NCBI GenBank assembly: GCA_949915775.1
Contig: CATLEG010000001.1
Span: 13,292 to 77,291 of the forward strand
Reading direction: 5' to 3'
Length of the DNA: 64,000 nt
Source: an uncultured Candidatus Melainabacteria bacterium
Lineage (GTDB): Bacteria > Cyanobacteriota > Vampirovibrionia > Gastranaerophilales > Gastranaerophilaceae
The notes beneath the pieces were generated by a model. That model was not told the DNA's origin. It was given only the letters and a program-made list of their open reading frames with translations, and made no database searches. A program made the translations under genes and the position numbers. This document shows positions 27,786 through 30,880 of the stretch, piece by piece. The number at the start of each line of letters is the position of its first letter. Positions within the stretch are counted from its first letter, which is position 1.

Positions 27786-28715
27786 ATGCAAAATATATTA
27801 GTTACGGGCGGTGCCGGTTTTATCGGGTCGCATCTGTGCGAAAAGCTTATTAATGAGGGCAATCATGTAATTTGTCTGGATAATTTTTTTACTGGTTCAA
27901 GAAAAAATATTGAACATCTTTTAGATAACAAAGAATTTGAACTTATCCGGCATGATATTGTTGAGCCAATTATCCTTGAAGTTGATAAAATTTATAATCT
28001 TGCTTGTCCGGCAAGCCCTATTCATTACCAGTTTAATGCGATTAAAACCATAAAAACTAACGTAATCGGGGTTACGAATATGCTTGATCTGGCAGATGAA
28101 ACCAAAGCTAGAATTTTGCAGGCATCTACAAGTGAAGTTTATGGCGACCCGACTGTTCATCCGCAAAAAGAAGAATACTGGGGAAATGTAAATCCGATAG
28201 GATTAAGAAGCTGTTATGATGAAGGAAAACGCGTAGCAGAAGCTTTGATGATGGATTATCATCGACAGCACAATGTGGATATAAAAATTATCAGAATATT
28301 TAATACATATGGTCCTAGAATGGCAGAAAATGATGGTAGAGTTGTTTCTAATTTTATAATTCAAGCTCTAAAAAATGAAGATATAACAATATATGGGGAC
28401 GGCAGTCAAACTCGTTCATTCTGTTATGTTGATGATTTGGTACGCGGTATGATTTCTTTGATGAATACAGAAAATTTTATCGGTCCTGTAAATGTTGGAA
28501 ACGACGGCGAATACAGTATTTTAGAACTTGCGAAAATGATTATAGAACTTTGCGATTCATCATCAAAGATTATATTTAAACCTTTACCGTCTGATGACCC
28601 TTGTAAACGTCGTCCTGATTTGAGTTTGGCGAAAGAAAAATTGGACTATGCTCCGACAGTAGACATAAAAGACGGATTGTTGAAAACGATAGAATACTTT
28701 AGAACAAGTTTGTAA
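27786..28715 (+). CDS. UDP-glucuronate decarboxylase (UDP-xylose synthase) family SDR
   Basis: [49 protein letters not shown]. Confidence 0.92.
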
Positions 28716-28875
28716 TACTACGGATGAATTCTTTTTGTTGTTCAAGTAAAATAACGTAATCACCTTCACCGCTTACTTCTGCATACCAAATTGCATCAGT
28801 GAGTACATGATTTACTGCTTCTATTTGTCCTATAGCGGCTTGAATTGCTTCCATTTTTTCTTCAAGTGTGAGCAT
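28699..28875 (-). CDS. Small acidic helical protein (58 aa; missing from the ORF track)
   Basis: AAGGT RBS; [58 protein letters not shown]; divergent from an HTH gene. Confidence 0.6.
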
Positions 28876-28909
28876 AAGTTAACCTTTCTTAATTATAAAA
28901 TCTATTTTA

Positions 28910-28943
28910 TACCAATATTGGTAATAATTTACCAATATAGTAA
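28910..28943. promoter_or_regulatory. Tandem palindromic operators
   Basis: TACCAATATTGGTA (perfect, 28910-28923) and TTACCAATATAGTAA (28929-28943). Confidence 0.65.
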
Positions 28944-28994
28944 CAAAATAGTTTTAAATTGTCAATATTTTACTTAAAAATGTATAATTAGTGT

Positions 28995-29204
28995 ATGAGT
29001 GTAAAAGAAGATATTAAAATTTTACTTGTTAAAGAATGCCTCACTATAAAAGATTTGGCTGAAAAAGCAAGTCAAGTTTCAGGTGAAAAATATAGTGTTG
29101 ATGGACTGTATAAAAAATTAAATAATAGCACCATGAAATATGACGAGGCTAAATTCCTAGCTCGCGTCCTTGGCTACGAAATTGAGTTTAAGAAAATAAA
29201 TTAA
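28995..29204 (+). CDS. Small HTH (XRE/Cro-like) protein
   Basis: LTIKDLAEKASQVSGEKYSVDGLYKKLNNSTMKYDEAKFLARVLGY; TATAAT, 6 nt, ATG. Confidence 0.8.
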   Translation: MSVKEDIKILLVKECLTIKDLAEKASQVSGEKYSVDGLYKKLNNSTMKYDEAKFLARVLGYEIEFKKIN

Positions 29205-29334
29205 TAATATTGCACTAATTGAGGTTTTGTATTAAAATTATTTTGCAGGGTAGCAGATGCCTCTTCAAAAGGAAAACTAACCGACACTTTTATATTGAAC
29301 CTCGGGTTGGTTCCCGACTAGAAAGGGGGCTGAT

Positions 29335-29415
29335 ATGGATAAATTCAATATTAGTCTATTGCTAATCTTTATGATTTTATTTGTATTAAAAAACGGCTCT
29401 CACTTAGAAAGATAA
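29335..29415 (+). CDS. Putative type I toxin peptide, locus 1 (26 aa)
   Basis: MDKFNISLLLIFMILFVLKNGSHLER; AAAGGGGG SD; promoter TTGCAC-17-TAAAAT; 90-nt structured leader. Confidence 0.65.
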   Translation: MDKFNISLLLIFMILFVLKNGSHLER

Positions 29416-29469
29416 GAACCGTTTGAACCTCTACAAGGCATCCGGCAGTCTGGAGAACTGCCACCCTGT
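29386..29469 (-). ncRNA. Putative antisense antitoxin RNA, locus 1
   Basis: Minus-strand TTGACA (29504-29499), 17 nt, AATAAT; terminator AAACGGTTCT/AGAGCCGTTT + U tract overlapping the toxin 3' end. Confidence 0.55.
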
Positions 29470-29560
29470 ATTTATATTATTTACTATTTTTGTAATTTTG
29501 TCAAGGGTATTTGAATATTTTTTGGCTTGCGATAAACTGTATTTATGGTATTATTACTTT

Positions 29561-30880
29561 ATGACTAAACCCATTGTAGCAATTGTAGGACGTCCAAATG
29601 TAGGAAAATCAACCTTTGTAAACCGTTTGATAGGTACAAGAAACTCTATCGTTGATGATTTGCCGGGGGTTACACGTGATAGAATTTATTTTGACGTTGA
29701 ATGGCAAAATAAAGTTTTTACAGTAATCGATACTGGCGGAATTATACCGGGTGACGAAGATGAAATTATGCTTTCTATTTTTGATCAAGCAAAAATTGCT
29801 TGTGATGAAGCTGAAAAAATTATCTTTATAGTTGACGGAAAAGAAGGTATTAATCCTGTAGATTATGATATTGCAAATATTTTACGTCAGTCAGGCAAAC
29901 AGGTTTTTCTTGCTGTAAATAAATTAGATAATCCCGAAAGTTTATTAATGATTAATGATTTTTATTCACTTGCAATTGGTGAACCTGTAGGAATTTCTGC
30001 ATTACATGGCTCTGGAGGTGTCGGCGATTTGTTAGACCTTGTGACCGAAGATTTTGAACAAGATATTGAACAAGTTGAAGATAATACAATTAAAATTGCA
30101 ATTGTCGGACGACCAAATGCGGGAAAATCTTCTATTGTAAATGCTTTGTTAAACGAAAATCGTGTAATTGTATCTGATATTTCAGGAACTACACGCGACA
30201 GTATTGACAGTTCAATAACTTATAAAGACAGAGAATTTATAATTATCGACACTGCCGGCATTAGAAAAAAAGCAAAAGTTGACTGGGGTGTTGAAAAATT
30301 TGCTGTAGACAGAGCAATACGTTCTATTAAAGATTGCGATGTTGCTCTTCTTGTAATTGATGCAAAAGAAGGAATTTCTGATCAGGATAAAAAAATTGCA
30401 TCTATTATTACTGAAGCAGGAAAAGGTATTATTATTGCAATCAACAAATGGGACTTGATTGAAGATAAACAATCTAATACCATAAATCAGTATAACAAAA
30501 AACTTGCTAATGATATTCCTTTTTTAGAATATGCTCCGAAAATATATATTTCAGCAGTTACCAAACAAAGATTAAACCAAATTTTTGTTGAGGCTGAAAA
30601 TGTTTATTCAGAATGTACCAAACGCATTTCAACAGGTTTATTGAATAAAGTTGTCAAAGAAGCATACATGCTTAATCCGCCGGCTTCTTCCAAAGGTAAG
30701 CGTTTAAAGATAATGTACGTAACTCAAACAGGAATTCAACCTCCGCATATTATTATTTTTGCAAATAACGCAGACTTAATGAAAGATCATTATAAGCGTT
30801 ATCTTGAAAATAAATTGCGTGAAGCATTCGGCTTTTTCGGTACTCCTGTAAAGCTTTCTGTTCGTGAGCGTTCTGATTAA
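29561..30880 (+). CDS. der: Ribosome biogenesis GTPase Der (EngA)
   Basis: Two G domains (GRPNVGKS, GRPNAGKS), DTGG, DTAG, KH-like C-terminus; start ATG29561. Confidence 0.97.
   Translation: MTKPIVAIVGRPNVGKSTFVNRLIGTRNSIVDDLPGVTRDRIYFDVEWQNKVFTVIDTGGIIPGDEDEIMLSIFDQAKIACDEAEKIIFIVDGKEGINPVDYDIANILRQSGKQVFLAVNKLDNPESLLMINDFYSLAIGEPVGISALHGSGGVGDLLDLVTEDFEQDIEQVEDNTIKIAIVGRPNAGKSSIVNALLNENRVIVSDISGTTRDSIDSSITYKDREFIIIDTAGIRKKAKVDWGVEKFAVDRAIRSIKDCDVALLVIDAKEGISDQDKKIASIITEAGKGIIIAINKWDLIEDKQSNTINQYNKKLANDIPFLEYAPKIYISAVTKQRLNQIFVEAENVYSECTKRISTGLLNKVVKEAYMLNPPASSKGKRLKIMYVTQTGIQPPHIIIFANNADLMKDHYKRYLENKLREAFGFFGTPVKLSVRERSD

What the first reader, a model, noticed from the sequence alone, without database searches (positions are those of the whole stretch)
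29210..29504. Type I toxin-antitoxin-like locus 1 (unannotated)
Seen: a TTGCAC-17-TAAAAT promoter. The transcript 5' end (GCAGGGTAGCAG, GATGCCT) pairs with its 3' end (CTGCCACCCTGT, AGGCATC). ATATTGAA/TTCAATAT encloses the SD and start. The ORF is a 26-aa peptide with a hydrophobic core and charged tail. A convergent TTGACA promoter and terminator define an ~85-nt antisense RNA over the toxin 3' end. Established: this is the architecture of TxpA/RatA- and AapA/IsoA-type systems. I know of no type I TA described from this lineage and do not recognise the peptide family.
Basis: partly seen in the sequence, partly recalled or inferred. Interest (0 to 1): 0.7.

Follow-up and report, generated by a model that had tools for sequence, protein, structure and literature searches.

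The report
Melainabacterial type I toxin-antitoxin family
A 300-bp cassette that encodes a 26-residue membrane-type peptide and a convergent antisense RNA belongs to an undescribed, multi-copy type I toxin-antitoxin-like family that is common in gut Melainabacteria (Gastranaerophilales) and their prophages; toxicity and transcription remain untested.

Summary
Window 29210-29505 is a sharply bounded cassette. A weak promoter drives a ~225-nt mRNA (29245-29470) encoding a 26-aa hydrophobic peptide (29335-29415). A near-consensus convergent promoter and a hairpin plus U6 terminator define an ~82-nt antisense RNA (29469->29388) over the last 8-9 codons and the 3'UTR.

I collected 113 distinct copies, and 109 keep an intact ATG ORF of 25-29 aa. 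Second codon positions are strongly conserved, and pN/pS is 0.40 in frame against 0.65 and 2.5 out of frame.

Covariation supports the 5'/3' closing helices of the mRNA. An 8-11-nt direct repeat in the 5'UTR and the 3'UTR also covaries, so the antisense RNA is complementary to the 5'UTR as well, as in Fst/par.

The family occurs in 124 of 301 sampled genomes of the order, almost all in one family. There are up to 7 copies per genome, tandem arrays, antisense-only remnants, and copies in a fixed prophage slot.

Rfam, Pfam and NCBIfam gave no match, the peptides are absent from a 15-billion-protein collection, and I found no paper on the lineage. It is a new family of a known kind, closest in logic to bsrG/SR4 and Fst/RNAII.

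The parts
29210..29238 (+). Toxin mRNA promoter: -35 TTGCAC (29210-29215), 17-nt spacer, -10 TAAAAT (29233-29238)
   Evidence: Sequence. The conserved block of the family starts here. Across 99 copies this promoter is weak and variable, with a median score of 8 of 12, only slightly better than shuffled sequence.
29245..29470 (+). Toxin mRNA, about 225 nt, from (G)CAGGGT to ACCCTGT. The exact 3' end is unknown.
   Evidence: Covariance model R1 matches 29245-29470 at 233.7 bits. The 5' and 3' ends covary, so a single RNA must contain both.
29245..29251 (+). H1, 5' strand GCAGGGT. It pairs with ACCCTGT at 29463-29469.
   Evidence: 7 pairs, 97.8% paired in 110 distinct copies, 5 of 7 pairs with compensatory changes. 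The paralogue on contig C63 has GGGGC/GCCCC instead.
29256..29266 (+). H2, 5' arm GATGCCT (29256-29262, pairs with AGGCATC at 29436-29442), overlapping a CU-rich candidate anti-Shine-Dalgarno element CCTCTTC (29260-29266)
   Evidence: Duplex energy is -12.45 kcal/mol within a copy and -7.63 kcal/mol between copies. This arm is the predicted partner of the Shine-Dalgarno sequence when the 3' region is blocked (0.58-0.65) and in this copy's minimum-free-energy fold.
29270..29315 (+). 5'UTR stem H4: AGGAAAACTAACCG (29270-29283) pairs with GGGTTGGTTCCC (29304-29315). The first direct repeat (DR1) lies in its loop.
   Evidence: Duplex mean -12.3 kcal/mol. The plus strand gives the lower energy in 52 of 75 copies because of G-U pairs. 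GGUA/UACC replaces GGAA/UUCC in copy G011.
29295..29303 (+). DR1, TTGAACCTC, the 5'UTR copy of the covarying direct repeat. Proposed second target of the antisense RNA.
   Evidence: The longest common substring between 5'UTR and 3'UTR averages 8.4 nt within a copy and 4.9 nt between copies, with at least 35 distinct repeat sequences.
29322..29329 (+). Shine-Dalgarno region AAAGGGGG, ending 5 nt before the ATG
   Evidence: Near-invariant block TCGGGTTGGTTCCCGACTAGAAAGGGGG. Predicted unpaired probability is only 0.13.
29335..29415 (+). Toxin ORF, 26 aa: MDKFNISLLLIFMILFVLKNGSHLER
   Evidence: ORF list. 109 of 113 copies keep an intact ATG ORF of 25-29 aa. Codon-position entropy is 0.69/0.19/0.82, and pN/pS is 0.395 in frame against 0.65 and 2.5 in the shifted frames.
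29423..29431 (+). DR2, TTGAACCTC, the 3'UTR copy of the direct repeat. Its CCUC(U) end is the predicted 3'UTR anti-Shine-Dalgarno element.
   Evidence: The repeat class covaries with the two bases after the Shine-Dalgarno sequence: GACTTC goes with TC, and AGCTTC or AGTCTTC goes with CT.
29444..29462 (.). H3 hairpin GGCAGTCTGGAGAACTGCC. It is the 3' hairpin of the mRNA and, as its complement, the 5' hairpin of the antisense RNA.
   Evidence: 99.3% paired, 4 of 5 pairs compensatory (CG to UA in 40 copies, GC to CG in 17).
29386..29469 (-). Antisense (antitoxin) RNA, about 82-84 nt, starting ACAGGGUGGCAG. It covers the last 8-9 codons, the stop codon and the 3'UTR.
   Evidence: The position is fixed by the conserved promoter, 7 nt from the -10 to ACAGGGT in 93 of 99 copies, and by the terminator. 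The fold gives a 5' hairpin, a linker and a terminator at -33.6 kcal/mol.
29388..29424 (-). Intrinsic terminator of the antisense RNA: hairpin 29424-29391 followed by U6 (29393-29388). The U-run and stem are the codons for L-K-N-G-S on the other strand.
   Evidence: Fold. Helix 4 is 96.4% paired, with 5 of 6 pairs compensatory. The simple terminator scan did not flag it.
29476..29504 (-). Antisense promoter: -35 TTGACA (29504-29499), 17-nt spacer, -10 AATAAT (29481-29476)
   Evidence: Scan. It scores 11 of 12 in 90 of 99 copies, with a 17-nt spacer in 87. Synteny with genome G008 ends exactly at 29505.

Best explanation
Window 29210-29505 is one copy of a chromosomal and prophage-borne type I toxin-antitoxin-like cassette specific to Gastranaerophilales (Melainabacteria).

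Components:
- A weak promoter makes a compact mRNA of about 225 nt for a 26-aa peptide. The peptide has a short polar N-terminus, a 13-15-residue hydrophobic helix and a polar, positively charged tail. It is inferred to insert into the membrane and to be harmful when made in quantity.
- A near-consensus convergent promoter makes an antisense RNA of about 82 nt, consisting of a 5' hairpin, a linker and a terminator.

Shown by covariation:
- The 5' end of the mRNA pairs with its 3' end (helices H1 and H2), enclosing a 3' hairpin.
- An 8-11-nt direct repeat sits in the 5'UTR (DR1, in the loop of a 5'UTR stem, about 21 nt upstream of the Shine-Dalgarno sequence) and again in the 3'UTR (DR2). The two copies change together between cassettes, so each antisense RNA is also complementary to its own 5'UTR.

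Predicted by folding:
- In the free mRNA the Shine-Dalgarno sequence is held by the pyrimidine end of DR2, and the AUG sits in a local stem.
- The antisense RNA is perfectly complementary to the last 8-9 codons, DR2, the 3' strand of H2, the hairpin and the 3' strand of H1.
- When the antisense RNA occupies the 3' region, the released CU-rich 5' arm takes over the Shine-Dalgarno sequence.

Inferred by analogy with bsrG/SR4, TxpA/RatA and Fst/RNAII:
- Antisense binding keeps the mRNA untranslatable, by an anti-Shine-Dalgarno swap plus the DR1 contact at the edge of the ribosome footprint.
- The 82-bp duplex is an RNase III substrate.
- Loss of the short-lived antisense RNA, after cassette or prophage loss or under stress, would allow peptide synthesis.

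The step that opens the ribosome-binding site is not identified.
For: Anatomy.

Family:
- 113 distinct copies and 114 covariance-model matches.
- 109 of 113 copies have an intact ORF.
- Codon-position entropy is 0.69/0.19/0.82. pN/pS is 0.395 in frame against 0.65 and 2.5 off frame.

Structure:
- 95.5% of cells are paired and 21 of 37 pairs carry compensatory changes. 0 of 500 shuffles reach this, and the slid controls give at most 10 such pairs.
- The H2 duplex is -12.45 kcal/mol within a copy against -7.63 kcal/mol between copies.
- A paralogue in the same genome has entirely different H1 and H2 sequences but the same layout.

Direct repeat:
- The longest common substring is 8.4 nt within a copy against 4.9 nt between copies.
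- No covarying partner inside the mRNA was found for its variable part.

Promoters:
- The antisense promoter scores 11 of 12 in 90 of 99 copies, while the toxin promoter is weak. bsrG/SR4 shows the same asymmetry (PMC3834814).

Shine-Dalgarno partners:
- The 3'UTR is the partner with probability 0.54 in the free mRNA.
- The 5' arm is the partner with probability 0.58-0.65 when the 3' region is blocked.

Behaviour typical of toxin-antitoxin modules:
- 35 of 60 genomes of the genus and 124 of 301 of the order carry it, with up to 7 copies per genome, tandem arrays of 4-5, and remnants that retain only the antisense part.
- Copies occupy a fixed prophage slot between the tail-fibre assembly gene and the lysis genes.
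- Paralogues within one genome carry different direct-repeat and H2 sequences.
Against: - Both RNAs are inferred from sequence.
- Toxicity is untested.
- The hydrophobic core is short, at 13-15 residues.
- The toxin promoter is barely better than shuffled AT-rich sequence in many copies.
- The plus strand has no canonical intrinsic terminator: 7 nt separate the 3' hairpin from an interrupted U-rich run, and the scan found none.
- Folding predicts a closed Shine-Dalgarno sequence in every state modelled, with unpaired probability 0.13-0.21. The model therefore does not explain how the peptide is ever made.
- The conserved LKNGS codons may be constrained by the antisense terminator rather than by peptide function.
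- Strand assignment of the long RNA from energies is weak. For H2 the plus strand gives the lower energy in 42 copies and the minus strand in 32. For the whole RNA it is 35 of 75. The window's minus strand folds with the better z-score, -4.72 against -3.22.
- The alignment used was fitted to the model structure.
- The association between repeat class and Shine-Dalgarno spacer could partly reflect shared ancestry.
Confidence: 0.75

Rival explanations
1. The cassette encodes a harmless small membrane protein, for example a modulator of a transporter or sensor, whose synthesis is tuned by a cis-antisense RNA. It would be an ordinary antisense-regulated small gene, not a toxin-antitoxin pair.
For: The peptide is conserved and selected for hydrophobicity, but nothing here shows toxicity. 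The ribosome-binding site is predicted closed in all modelled states. Many small membrane proteins are non-toxic (review PMC12648545, listed but not read).
Against: A housekeeping small protein would be expected as a single copy in a stable context. This cassette is patchy (35 of 60 genomes of the genus), has up to 7 copies per genome, occurs in tandem arrays and leaves antisense-only remnants. It sits in unrelated contexts and in a prophage accessory slot. The pairing of a weak toxin promoter with a near-consensus antisense promoter is the signature of type I modules.
Confidence: 0.12
2. The peptide is primarily a phage function, such as a lysis-timing or holin-like accessory, or a superinfection-exclusion or abortive-infection effector. 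It would be carried as a prophage accessory gene, and the chromosomal copies would be leftovers. The antisense RNA would keep it silent in the lysogen.
For: In three independent IMG/VR prophage contigs the cassette lies in the same slot. It is co-oriented with the late genes, between the tail-fibre assembly gene and the small-ORF plus endolysin cassette next to the integrase. TxpA/RatA and bsrG/SR4 also reside in prophage regions (my own knowledge).
Against: Most copies, including the window's (between an epimerase, two small genes and der), have no phage genes beside them. 26 aa is far shorter than known holins. This reading overlaps with the toxin-antitoxin explanation rather than excluding it.
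Confidence: 0.08
3. The unit is a non-coding structured element, either a mobile repeat or a pair of small RNAs, and the ORF is incidental.
For: The RNA structure is strong and covaries. Part of the ORF doubles as the antisense terminator. The cassette is multi-copy with sharp boundaries.
Against: 109 of 113 copies keep the ATG, the reading frame and a 25-29-codon length. An invariant Shine-Dalgarno sequence lies 5 nt upstream of the ATG. Second codon positions are about four times more conserved than first and third positions, and pN/pS is lowest in the ORF frame. Divergent copies replace residues conservatively, for example MENINLTLIMLFLIMFLIKNGSYQNR. Apart from the two convergent -35 boxes I saw no terminal inverted repeats; target-site duplications were not examined.
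Confidence: 0.03

Closest known systems
bsrG/SR4 (Bacillus subtilis SPbeta prophage), with the related TxpA/RatA
   Same: [quoted passage not shown] The 5' and 3' ends of the mRNA pair in a long closing helix, and the Shine-Dalgarno sequence lies in a double-stranded region. The antitoxin promoter is much stronger than the toxin promoter. In bsrG/SR4, antitoxin binding at the 3' end frees the 5' nucleotides, which re-fold to tighten sequestration of the Shine-Dalgarno sequence, and RNase III degrades the duplex (PMC3834814). Folding predicts the same kind of swap here.
   Different: There is no sequence relationship: no Pfam or NCBIfam hit for the peptide and no Rfam hit for the RNA. The peptide is 26 aa against 38 aa for BsrG. 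The antisense RNA is about 82 nt against about 180 nt. The 3' hairpin lies inside the closing helix rather than after it. The extra covarying direct repeat that gives 5'UTR complementarity is not a feature of bsrG/SR4. The lineage also differs: Melainabacteria against Bacillota.
Fst/RNAII (par of pAD1) and SprA1/SprA1as
   Same: Convergent promoters. DNA direct repeats are read in opposite directions, so the antitoxin RNA is complementary to the 5' region of the toxin mRNA as well as to the 3' end. Helices within the mRNA sequester both the 5' end and the Shine-Dalgarno sequence. The toxin mRNA is about 230 nt (PMC7472228; PMC8594479).
   Different: The peptide lacks the PXXXG motif and has no Fst Pfam hit. 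There is no shared bidirectional terminator. The two RNAs overlap by about 82 nt, including 8-9 codons, whereas Fst-type antisense RNAs do not overlap the ORF. There is one repeat pair, not DRa plus DRb. DR1 lies about 21 nt upstream of the Shine-Dalgarno sequence rather than over the initiation site.
AapA/IsoA (Helicobacter) and hok/sok
   Same: A long-distance 5'-3' interaction locks the full-length toxin mRNA in a closed form, and the peptide is short (my own knowledge).
   Different: In those families the antisense RNA lies over or near the 5' part of the mRNA and is fully covered by it. Here it covers the 3' end. No leader ORF is present. 3' processing was not tested.
MsoT1/MsoA1 of Microcystis aeruginosa (candidate, 2025)
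   Same: It is the only type I candidate reported from the phylum Cyanobacteriota. Its cis-encoded antisense RNA of 56-83 nt, with two hairpins, binds the 3' end of the ORF and the 3'UTR (PMC12390103).
   Different: MsoT1 is 63 aa with two predicted helices and is restricted to photosynthetic cyanobacteria. It is unrelated in sequence. Covariance model R1 found nothing outside one Gastranaerophilales family in a sample of 351 genomes across the phylum.

Membership tests
Type I toxin-antitoxin systems (general class) | Short (<60 aa) hydrophobic peptide ORF with its own ribosome-binding site | tested here: met
   26-aa ORF with Shine-Dalgarno GGGGG 5 nt upstream. Intact in 109 of 113 copies, with purifying selection on hydrophobicity.
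Type I toxin-antitoxin systems (general class) | Antisense RNA gene complementary to the toxin mRNA | tested here: met
   At the sequence level only. A near-consensus convergent promoter is present in 90 of 99 copies, at a fixed distance from a hairpin plus U6 terminator. Transcription itself could not be checked.
Type I toxin-antitoxin systems (general class) | Peptide is toxic when over-produced, and the RNA neutralises it | not testable with these tools
   This needs expression experiments. Only indirect support exists: multi-copy and patchy distribution, antisense-only remnants, and prophage-borne copies.
Fst/RNAII (par) | Fst-type peptide with a PXXXG motif (Pfam Fst_toxin) | tested here: not met
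   The hydrophobic domain of MDKFNISLLLIFMILFVLKNGSHLER contains no proline or glycine. No Pfam or NCBIfam hit at E<=10. Motif definition taken from PMC7472228.
Fst/RNAII (par) | Direct repeats giving antitoxin complementarity to the 5' region of the toxin mRNA | tested here: met
   DR1 (29295-29303) equals DR2 (29423-29431). Identity is 8.4 nt within a copy against 4.9 nt between copies. There is one repeat pair, and it lies upstream of the Shine-Dalgarno sequence rather than over the start site.
Fst/RNAII (par) | Shared bidirectional terminator, with no overlap of the ORF | tested here: not met
   The antisense terminator lies inside the last 8-9 codons, and the RNAs overlap by about 82 nt.
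bsrG/SR4 and TxpA/RatA | [quoted passage not shown] | tested here: met
   Antisense RNA at 29469->29388 against the ORF end at 29415.
bsrG/SR4 and TxpA/RatA | Sequence homology of the toxin (BsrG or TxpA families) or of the antitoxin RNA (Rfam models) | tested here: not met
   No Pfam or NCBIfam hit. No Rfam family reached its gathering score, and at E<=10 only chance-level hits appeared.
bsrG/SR4 | 5'-3' closing helix whose 5' strand re-folds onto the Shine-Dalgarno sequence when the antitoxin binds | tested here: inconclusive
   The closing helices are shown by covariation. The re-folding is only a thermodynamic prediction: the partner of the Shine-Dalgarno sequence shifts from the 3'UTR (0.54) to the 5' arm (0.58-0.65).
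AapA/IsoA | Antisense RNA over the 5' part of the mRNA and the start of the ORF, fully covered by the mRNA | tested here: not met
   The antisense RNA covers the 3' end only. Family layout taken from PMC8594479.

The most novel reading that the evidence does not exclude
Gastranaerophilaceae may carry a modular superfamily of type I cassettes built on one regulatory scaffold: a (C)AGGGT 5' end, 5'/3' closure, and a shared antisense promoter module. Different toxin ORFs would be swapped into this scaffold. Locus 1 is one example. Locus 2 of this window, encoding MNFWITEKALWLILAIIIALKFIK, is another. In this reading each paralogue carries a private 8-11-nt address, the covarying direct repeat plus the H2 sequence. 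That address would let up to 7 copies coexist without cross-talk. The antitoxin would act by forcing a swap between two alternative anti-Shine-Dalgarno elements. The phage-borne copies would serve prophage retention or defence.
Probability: 0.35. Interest if true: 0.7.

Novelty: new member of a known kind. Interest (0 to 1): 0.58.

Why it matters
A 2025 paper states that type I toxin-antitoxin systems have been found only in Proteobacteria, Firmicutes and Tenericutes, and it reports a single candidate from photosynthetic cyanobacteria (PMC12390103). This family would extend the class to the uncultured, non-photosynthetic Melainabacteria of the animal gut.

The dataset is unusually informative. 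More than 100 natural variants already define the RNA structure and the contact points between antitoxin and mRNA by covariation.

The family also offers a natural series of orthogonal toxin/antisense pairs. The prophage-borne copies link it to phage biology in a lineage with no genetic tools. Neither gene callers nor RNA or protein family libraries annotate it at present.

Tried and rejected
- Rfam, at both the gathering and the E-value thresholds, gave only chance-level hits.
- Pfam and NCBIfam gave nothing for the locus 1 peptide variants or the locus 2 peptide.
- An exact look-up of five peptide variants in the 15-billion-protein collection found none.
- I considered a 6S RNA, a riboswitch or a leader for der. 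These are rejected: there is no Rfam hit, copies sit in many unrelated contexts, and homology with relatives upstream of der starts only about 20 nt before the der start codon.
- The empty-site comparison upstream of der was uninformative because that region is not syntenic in the genus.
- RNAduplex of the whole antisense RNA against the whole 5'UTR gave meaningless long looped duplexes. I replaced it with the repeat-identity test.
- The search for a covarying partner of the direct repeat inside the mRNA was negative (6.03 nt against 6.19 nt). A targeted look found only an association between the repeat's 3' end and the two bases after the Shine-Dalgarno sequence.
- Strand assignment by folding energy was ambiguous.
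- The GenBank phage and PLSDB plasmid collections gave no match.
Full report
**What is in the window**

- On the plus strand, TTGCAC (29210-29215), a 17-nt spacer and TAAAAT (29233-29238) precede a transcript-like block that begins GCAGGGT at 29245.
- A Shine-Dalgarno sequence GGGGG (29325-29329) lies 5 nt before an ATG ORF (29335-29415). The ORF encodes MDKFNISLLLIFMILFVLKNGSHLER.
- On the minus strand, TTGACA (29504-29499), a 17-nt spacer and AATAAT (29481-29476) form an 11-of-12 promoter match.
- About 7 nt downstream of that promoter the minus strand reads ACAGGGUGGCAG. About 82 nt further on comes a 10-13-bp hairpin followed by U6 (29424-29388).
- The predicted antisense RNA folds as a 5' hairpin, a linker and a terminator (-33.6 kcal/mol).
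- It covers the last 8-9 codons, the stop codon and the whole 3'UTR of the peptide mRNA.
- The simple terminator scan did not flag the hairpin, and the plus-strand -35 is too weak for the promoter scan.
- No Rfam family matches, at gathering score or at E<=10 beyond chance.

**It is a family, not a chance arrangement**

- BLAST in the window's own genome found two more copies in tandem on contig C5. It also found copies in about half of the genomes of the genus.
- A degenerate pattern for the conserved leader block was scanned over one genome per GTDB species, and nhmmer was then run on the hits. Together they gave 113 distinct full-length copies.
- Almost all lie in MAGs titled Candidatus Gastranaerophilales or Melainabacteria, which identifies the lineage.
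- Conservation starts at the plus-strand -35 and stops at the minus-strand -35, so the unit runs from promoter to promoter and is about 295 bp long.
- Synteny with the closest relative that shares this site (G008) runs from 27786 to exactly 29505. It breaks at the outer edge of the antisense -35.

**The ORF is a real coding sequence**

- 109 of 113 copies keep an ATG ORF of 25-29 codons. The consensus is about MDNFN[IL]SL[LF]LIFLIL[YFC][IV]LKNGS[HY]LNR, and divergent copies change residues conservatively.
- In codons 2-18, which lie outside the antisense overlap, the entropy of codon positions 1/2/3 is 0.69/0.19/0.82.
- pN/pS is 0.395 in frame, against 0.65 and 2.5 in the two shifted frames.
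- The codons for L-K-N-G-S coincide with the U-tract and stem of the antisense terminator. That motif may therefore be constrained at the RNA level.
- The peptide has no Pfam or NCBIfam match.
- Five variants are absent from a collection of about 15 billion predicted proteins. The gene is effectively unannotated.

**RNA structure**

I built covariance model R1 from 15 copies and aligned 114 matches to it. On that alignment 95.5% of cells pair, and 21 of 37 pairs show compensatory changes. No shuffle out of 500 reaches these values, and sliding the partners drops pairing to 35-43%. The caveat is that the alignment was fitted to the model's structure.

The supported helices are:
- H1, the closure of the 5' and 3' ends (GCAGGGT with ACCCTGT; GC to AU at the fifth pair);
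- a small UCGGG/CCCGA hairpin in the leader;
- a stem enclosing the AUG;
- the terminator hairpin;
- the 3' hairpin H3 (CG to UA in 40 copies, GC to CG in 17).

A second long-range helix, H2, shifts register between copies, so I tested it without an alignment. In the window it is GATGCCT (29256-29262) pairing with AGGCATC (29436-29442). The duplex energy is -12.45 kcal/mol within a copy and -7.63 kcal/mol between copies.

A fourth, divergent paralogue in the same genome (C63:860-1077) has GGGGC/GCCCC for H1 and CCUGUAUC/AUACAGG for H2. Its layout, its peptide (MDNFNLALFLIFLIIFIIKNDTHIK) and its antisense promoter are otherwise the same.

A 5'UTR stem, H4 (29270-29283 with 29304-15), uses many G-U pairs. 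The plus strand gives the lower energy in 52 of 75 copies. Other energy-based tests of strand were ambiguous.

**The direct repeat**

- The 8-11 nt just upstream of the invariant TCGGG block in the 5'UTR (TTGAACCTC, 29295-29303) recur after the terminator arm in the 3'UTR (29423-29431).
- Across copies the repeat takes at least 35 different sequences, such as TAGACCTC, TTCAAGCTTC, ATAGTCTTC and TTTAGACTTCG. The two copies within one cassette nevertheless stay identical.
- The longest common substring is 8.4 nt within a copy and 4.9 nt between copies.
- The antisense RNA is the complement of the 3'UTR copy. This covariation therefore keeps each antisense RNA complementary to its own 5'UTR.
- That is the logic of the DRa/DRb repeats of Fst/par (PMC7472228).
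- I found no covarying partner within the mRNA for the variable part of the repeat.
- The repeat's pyrimidine-rich 3' end can pair with the Shine-Dalgarno sequence. It also covaries with the two bases that follow: GACTTC goes with TC, and AGCTTC or AGTCTTC goes with CT. Shared ancestry may contribute to this association.

**Translation control as predicted by folding**

- In the free mRNA the Shine-Dalgarno sequence is mostly paired (unpaired probability 0.13). Its main partner is the 3'UTR repeat region (0.54).
- If the nucleotides covered by the antisense RNA are made unavailable, the Shine-Dalgarno sequence stays paired (0.19-0.21 unpaired). Its partner becomes the released CU-rich 5' arm (0.58-0.65).
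- bsrG/SR4 behaves this way experimentally. Antitoxin binding at the 3' end frees the 5' strand of the closing helix and tightens the stem that holds the Shine-Dalgarno sequence. RNase III then degrades the duplex (PMC3834814).
- None of the states I modelled opens the ribosome-binding site, so the activating step is unknown.

**Promoters**

- The antisense promoter scores 11 of 12 in 90 of 99 copies. It has a 17-nt spacer in 87 copies and a fixed 7 nt from the -10 to ACAGGGT in 93.
- The toxin promoter is weak and variable, with a median score of 8 of 12, close to shuffled AT-rich sequence.
- The pairing of a strong antitoxin promoter with a weak toxin promoter is the usual type I pattern.

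**Distribution and context**

- Model R1 matches 35 of 60 genomes of the genus.
- It matches 124 of 301 genomes sampled from the order, in 27 of 58 genera. All are in one family except a single genome of another family.
- It matches nothing outside that family in a sample of 351 genomes across the phylum.
- Genomes carry up to 7 copies. Tandem arrays of 4-5 copies occur (loci L048 and L098).
- Some copies have lost the start codon (C5b) or are reduced to the antisense RNA part alone (model positions 143-217).
- Paralogues within one genome differ in their direct-repeat and H2 sequences.
- Six IMG/VR viral contigs carry full copies.
- In the three I examined, the cassette lies in the same slot of a tailed prophage. 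It is co-oriented with the late genes, between the tail-fibre assembly gene and the small-ORF plus endolysin cassette next to the integrase.
- The GenBank phage and PLSDB plasmid collections have no match.
- The window's copy is not inside a recognisable prophage. It follows a divergent pair of small genes (58 aa and 69 aa) and precedes der.
- Homologues of the 69-aa gene also end immediately before the cassette at two other distinct sites, in three genomes in all.

**Comparison with known systems**

- It is not a member of any of those families. The peptide lacks the Fst PXXXG motif and any family hit. The antisense RNA overlaps the ORF and there is no shared bidirectional terminator. The antisense position is opposite to AapA/IsoA.
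- No paper in the library links type I systems to Melainabacteria or Gastranaerophilales.
- A 2025 paper states that type I systems were known only from Proteobacteria, Firmicutes and Tenericutes. It reports one unrelated 63-aa candidate from Microcystis (PMC12390103).

**Verdict**

This is a new family of a known kind, defined here by more than 100 natural variants. What is missing is direct evidence for the two transcripts and for toxicity.

Noticed in passing
It has the same scaffold: a TATAAT -10, CAGGGTAAG at the 5' end, CU-rich leader motifs, an AAGGAGGTG Shine-Dalgarno sequence, and a convergent promoter TTGAAA-17-TATAAT whose spacer resembles that of locus-1 copies. The peptide is unrelated (MNFWITEKALWLILAIIIALKFIK). 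Model R1 does not hit it. It is multi-copy in 12 of 19 genomes of the genus. Separate partial matches to the ORF part or to the 3' part suggest modular exchange.
   Followed up: partly
window 28699-29204: A divergent pair of small genes (58 aa on the minus strand, 69 aa on the plus strand) surrounds an intergenic region with repeated TACCAATAT motifs that look like an operator. Homologues of the 69-aa gene (55% and 36% identity) end immediately before the cassette at two other sites, in genomes G008 and G019. This may be a small co-travelling regulatory pair.
   Followed up: partly
L201:2992-3214, L200:7036-7259, L196:11535-11762 (IMG/VR contigs): The cassette occupies a conserved accessory-gene slot in related tailed prophages. 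It lies between the tail-fibre assembly gene and a small-ORF plus endolysin cassette beside a tyrosine integrase, and it is co-oriented with the late genes.
   Followed up: partly
L048:2453-4311 and L098:5231-6425: Tandem arrays of five and four cassettes at a spacing of about 320 bp. The members are diverged, and some have lost the start codon or the ORF.
   Followed up: no
G014:C2:47605-47946 (L011/L033): One copy has its 5' end (TGCAGGGTA...) displaced about 120 bp upstream. Something appears to be inserted into the 5' arm region. I did not examine the insert.
   Followed up: no
L038, L066, L067, L083, L073, L092, L105: Full-length cassettes lie on contigs of MAGs titled Muribaculaceae, Brachyspira, Acinetobacter or Bacteroidaceae. 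Mis-binning or mislabelling is the likeliest cause, given that the family is otherwise restricted to one lineage.
   Followed up: no
window 29505-29562 and relatives (L165-L193): The region upstream of der is not syntenic across the genus. Homology starts only about 20 nt before the der start codon. In genome G004 another cassette sits upstream of der in the opposite orientation, so this looks like a rearrangement hotspot.
   Followed up: partly
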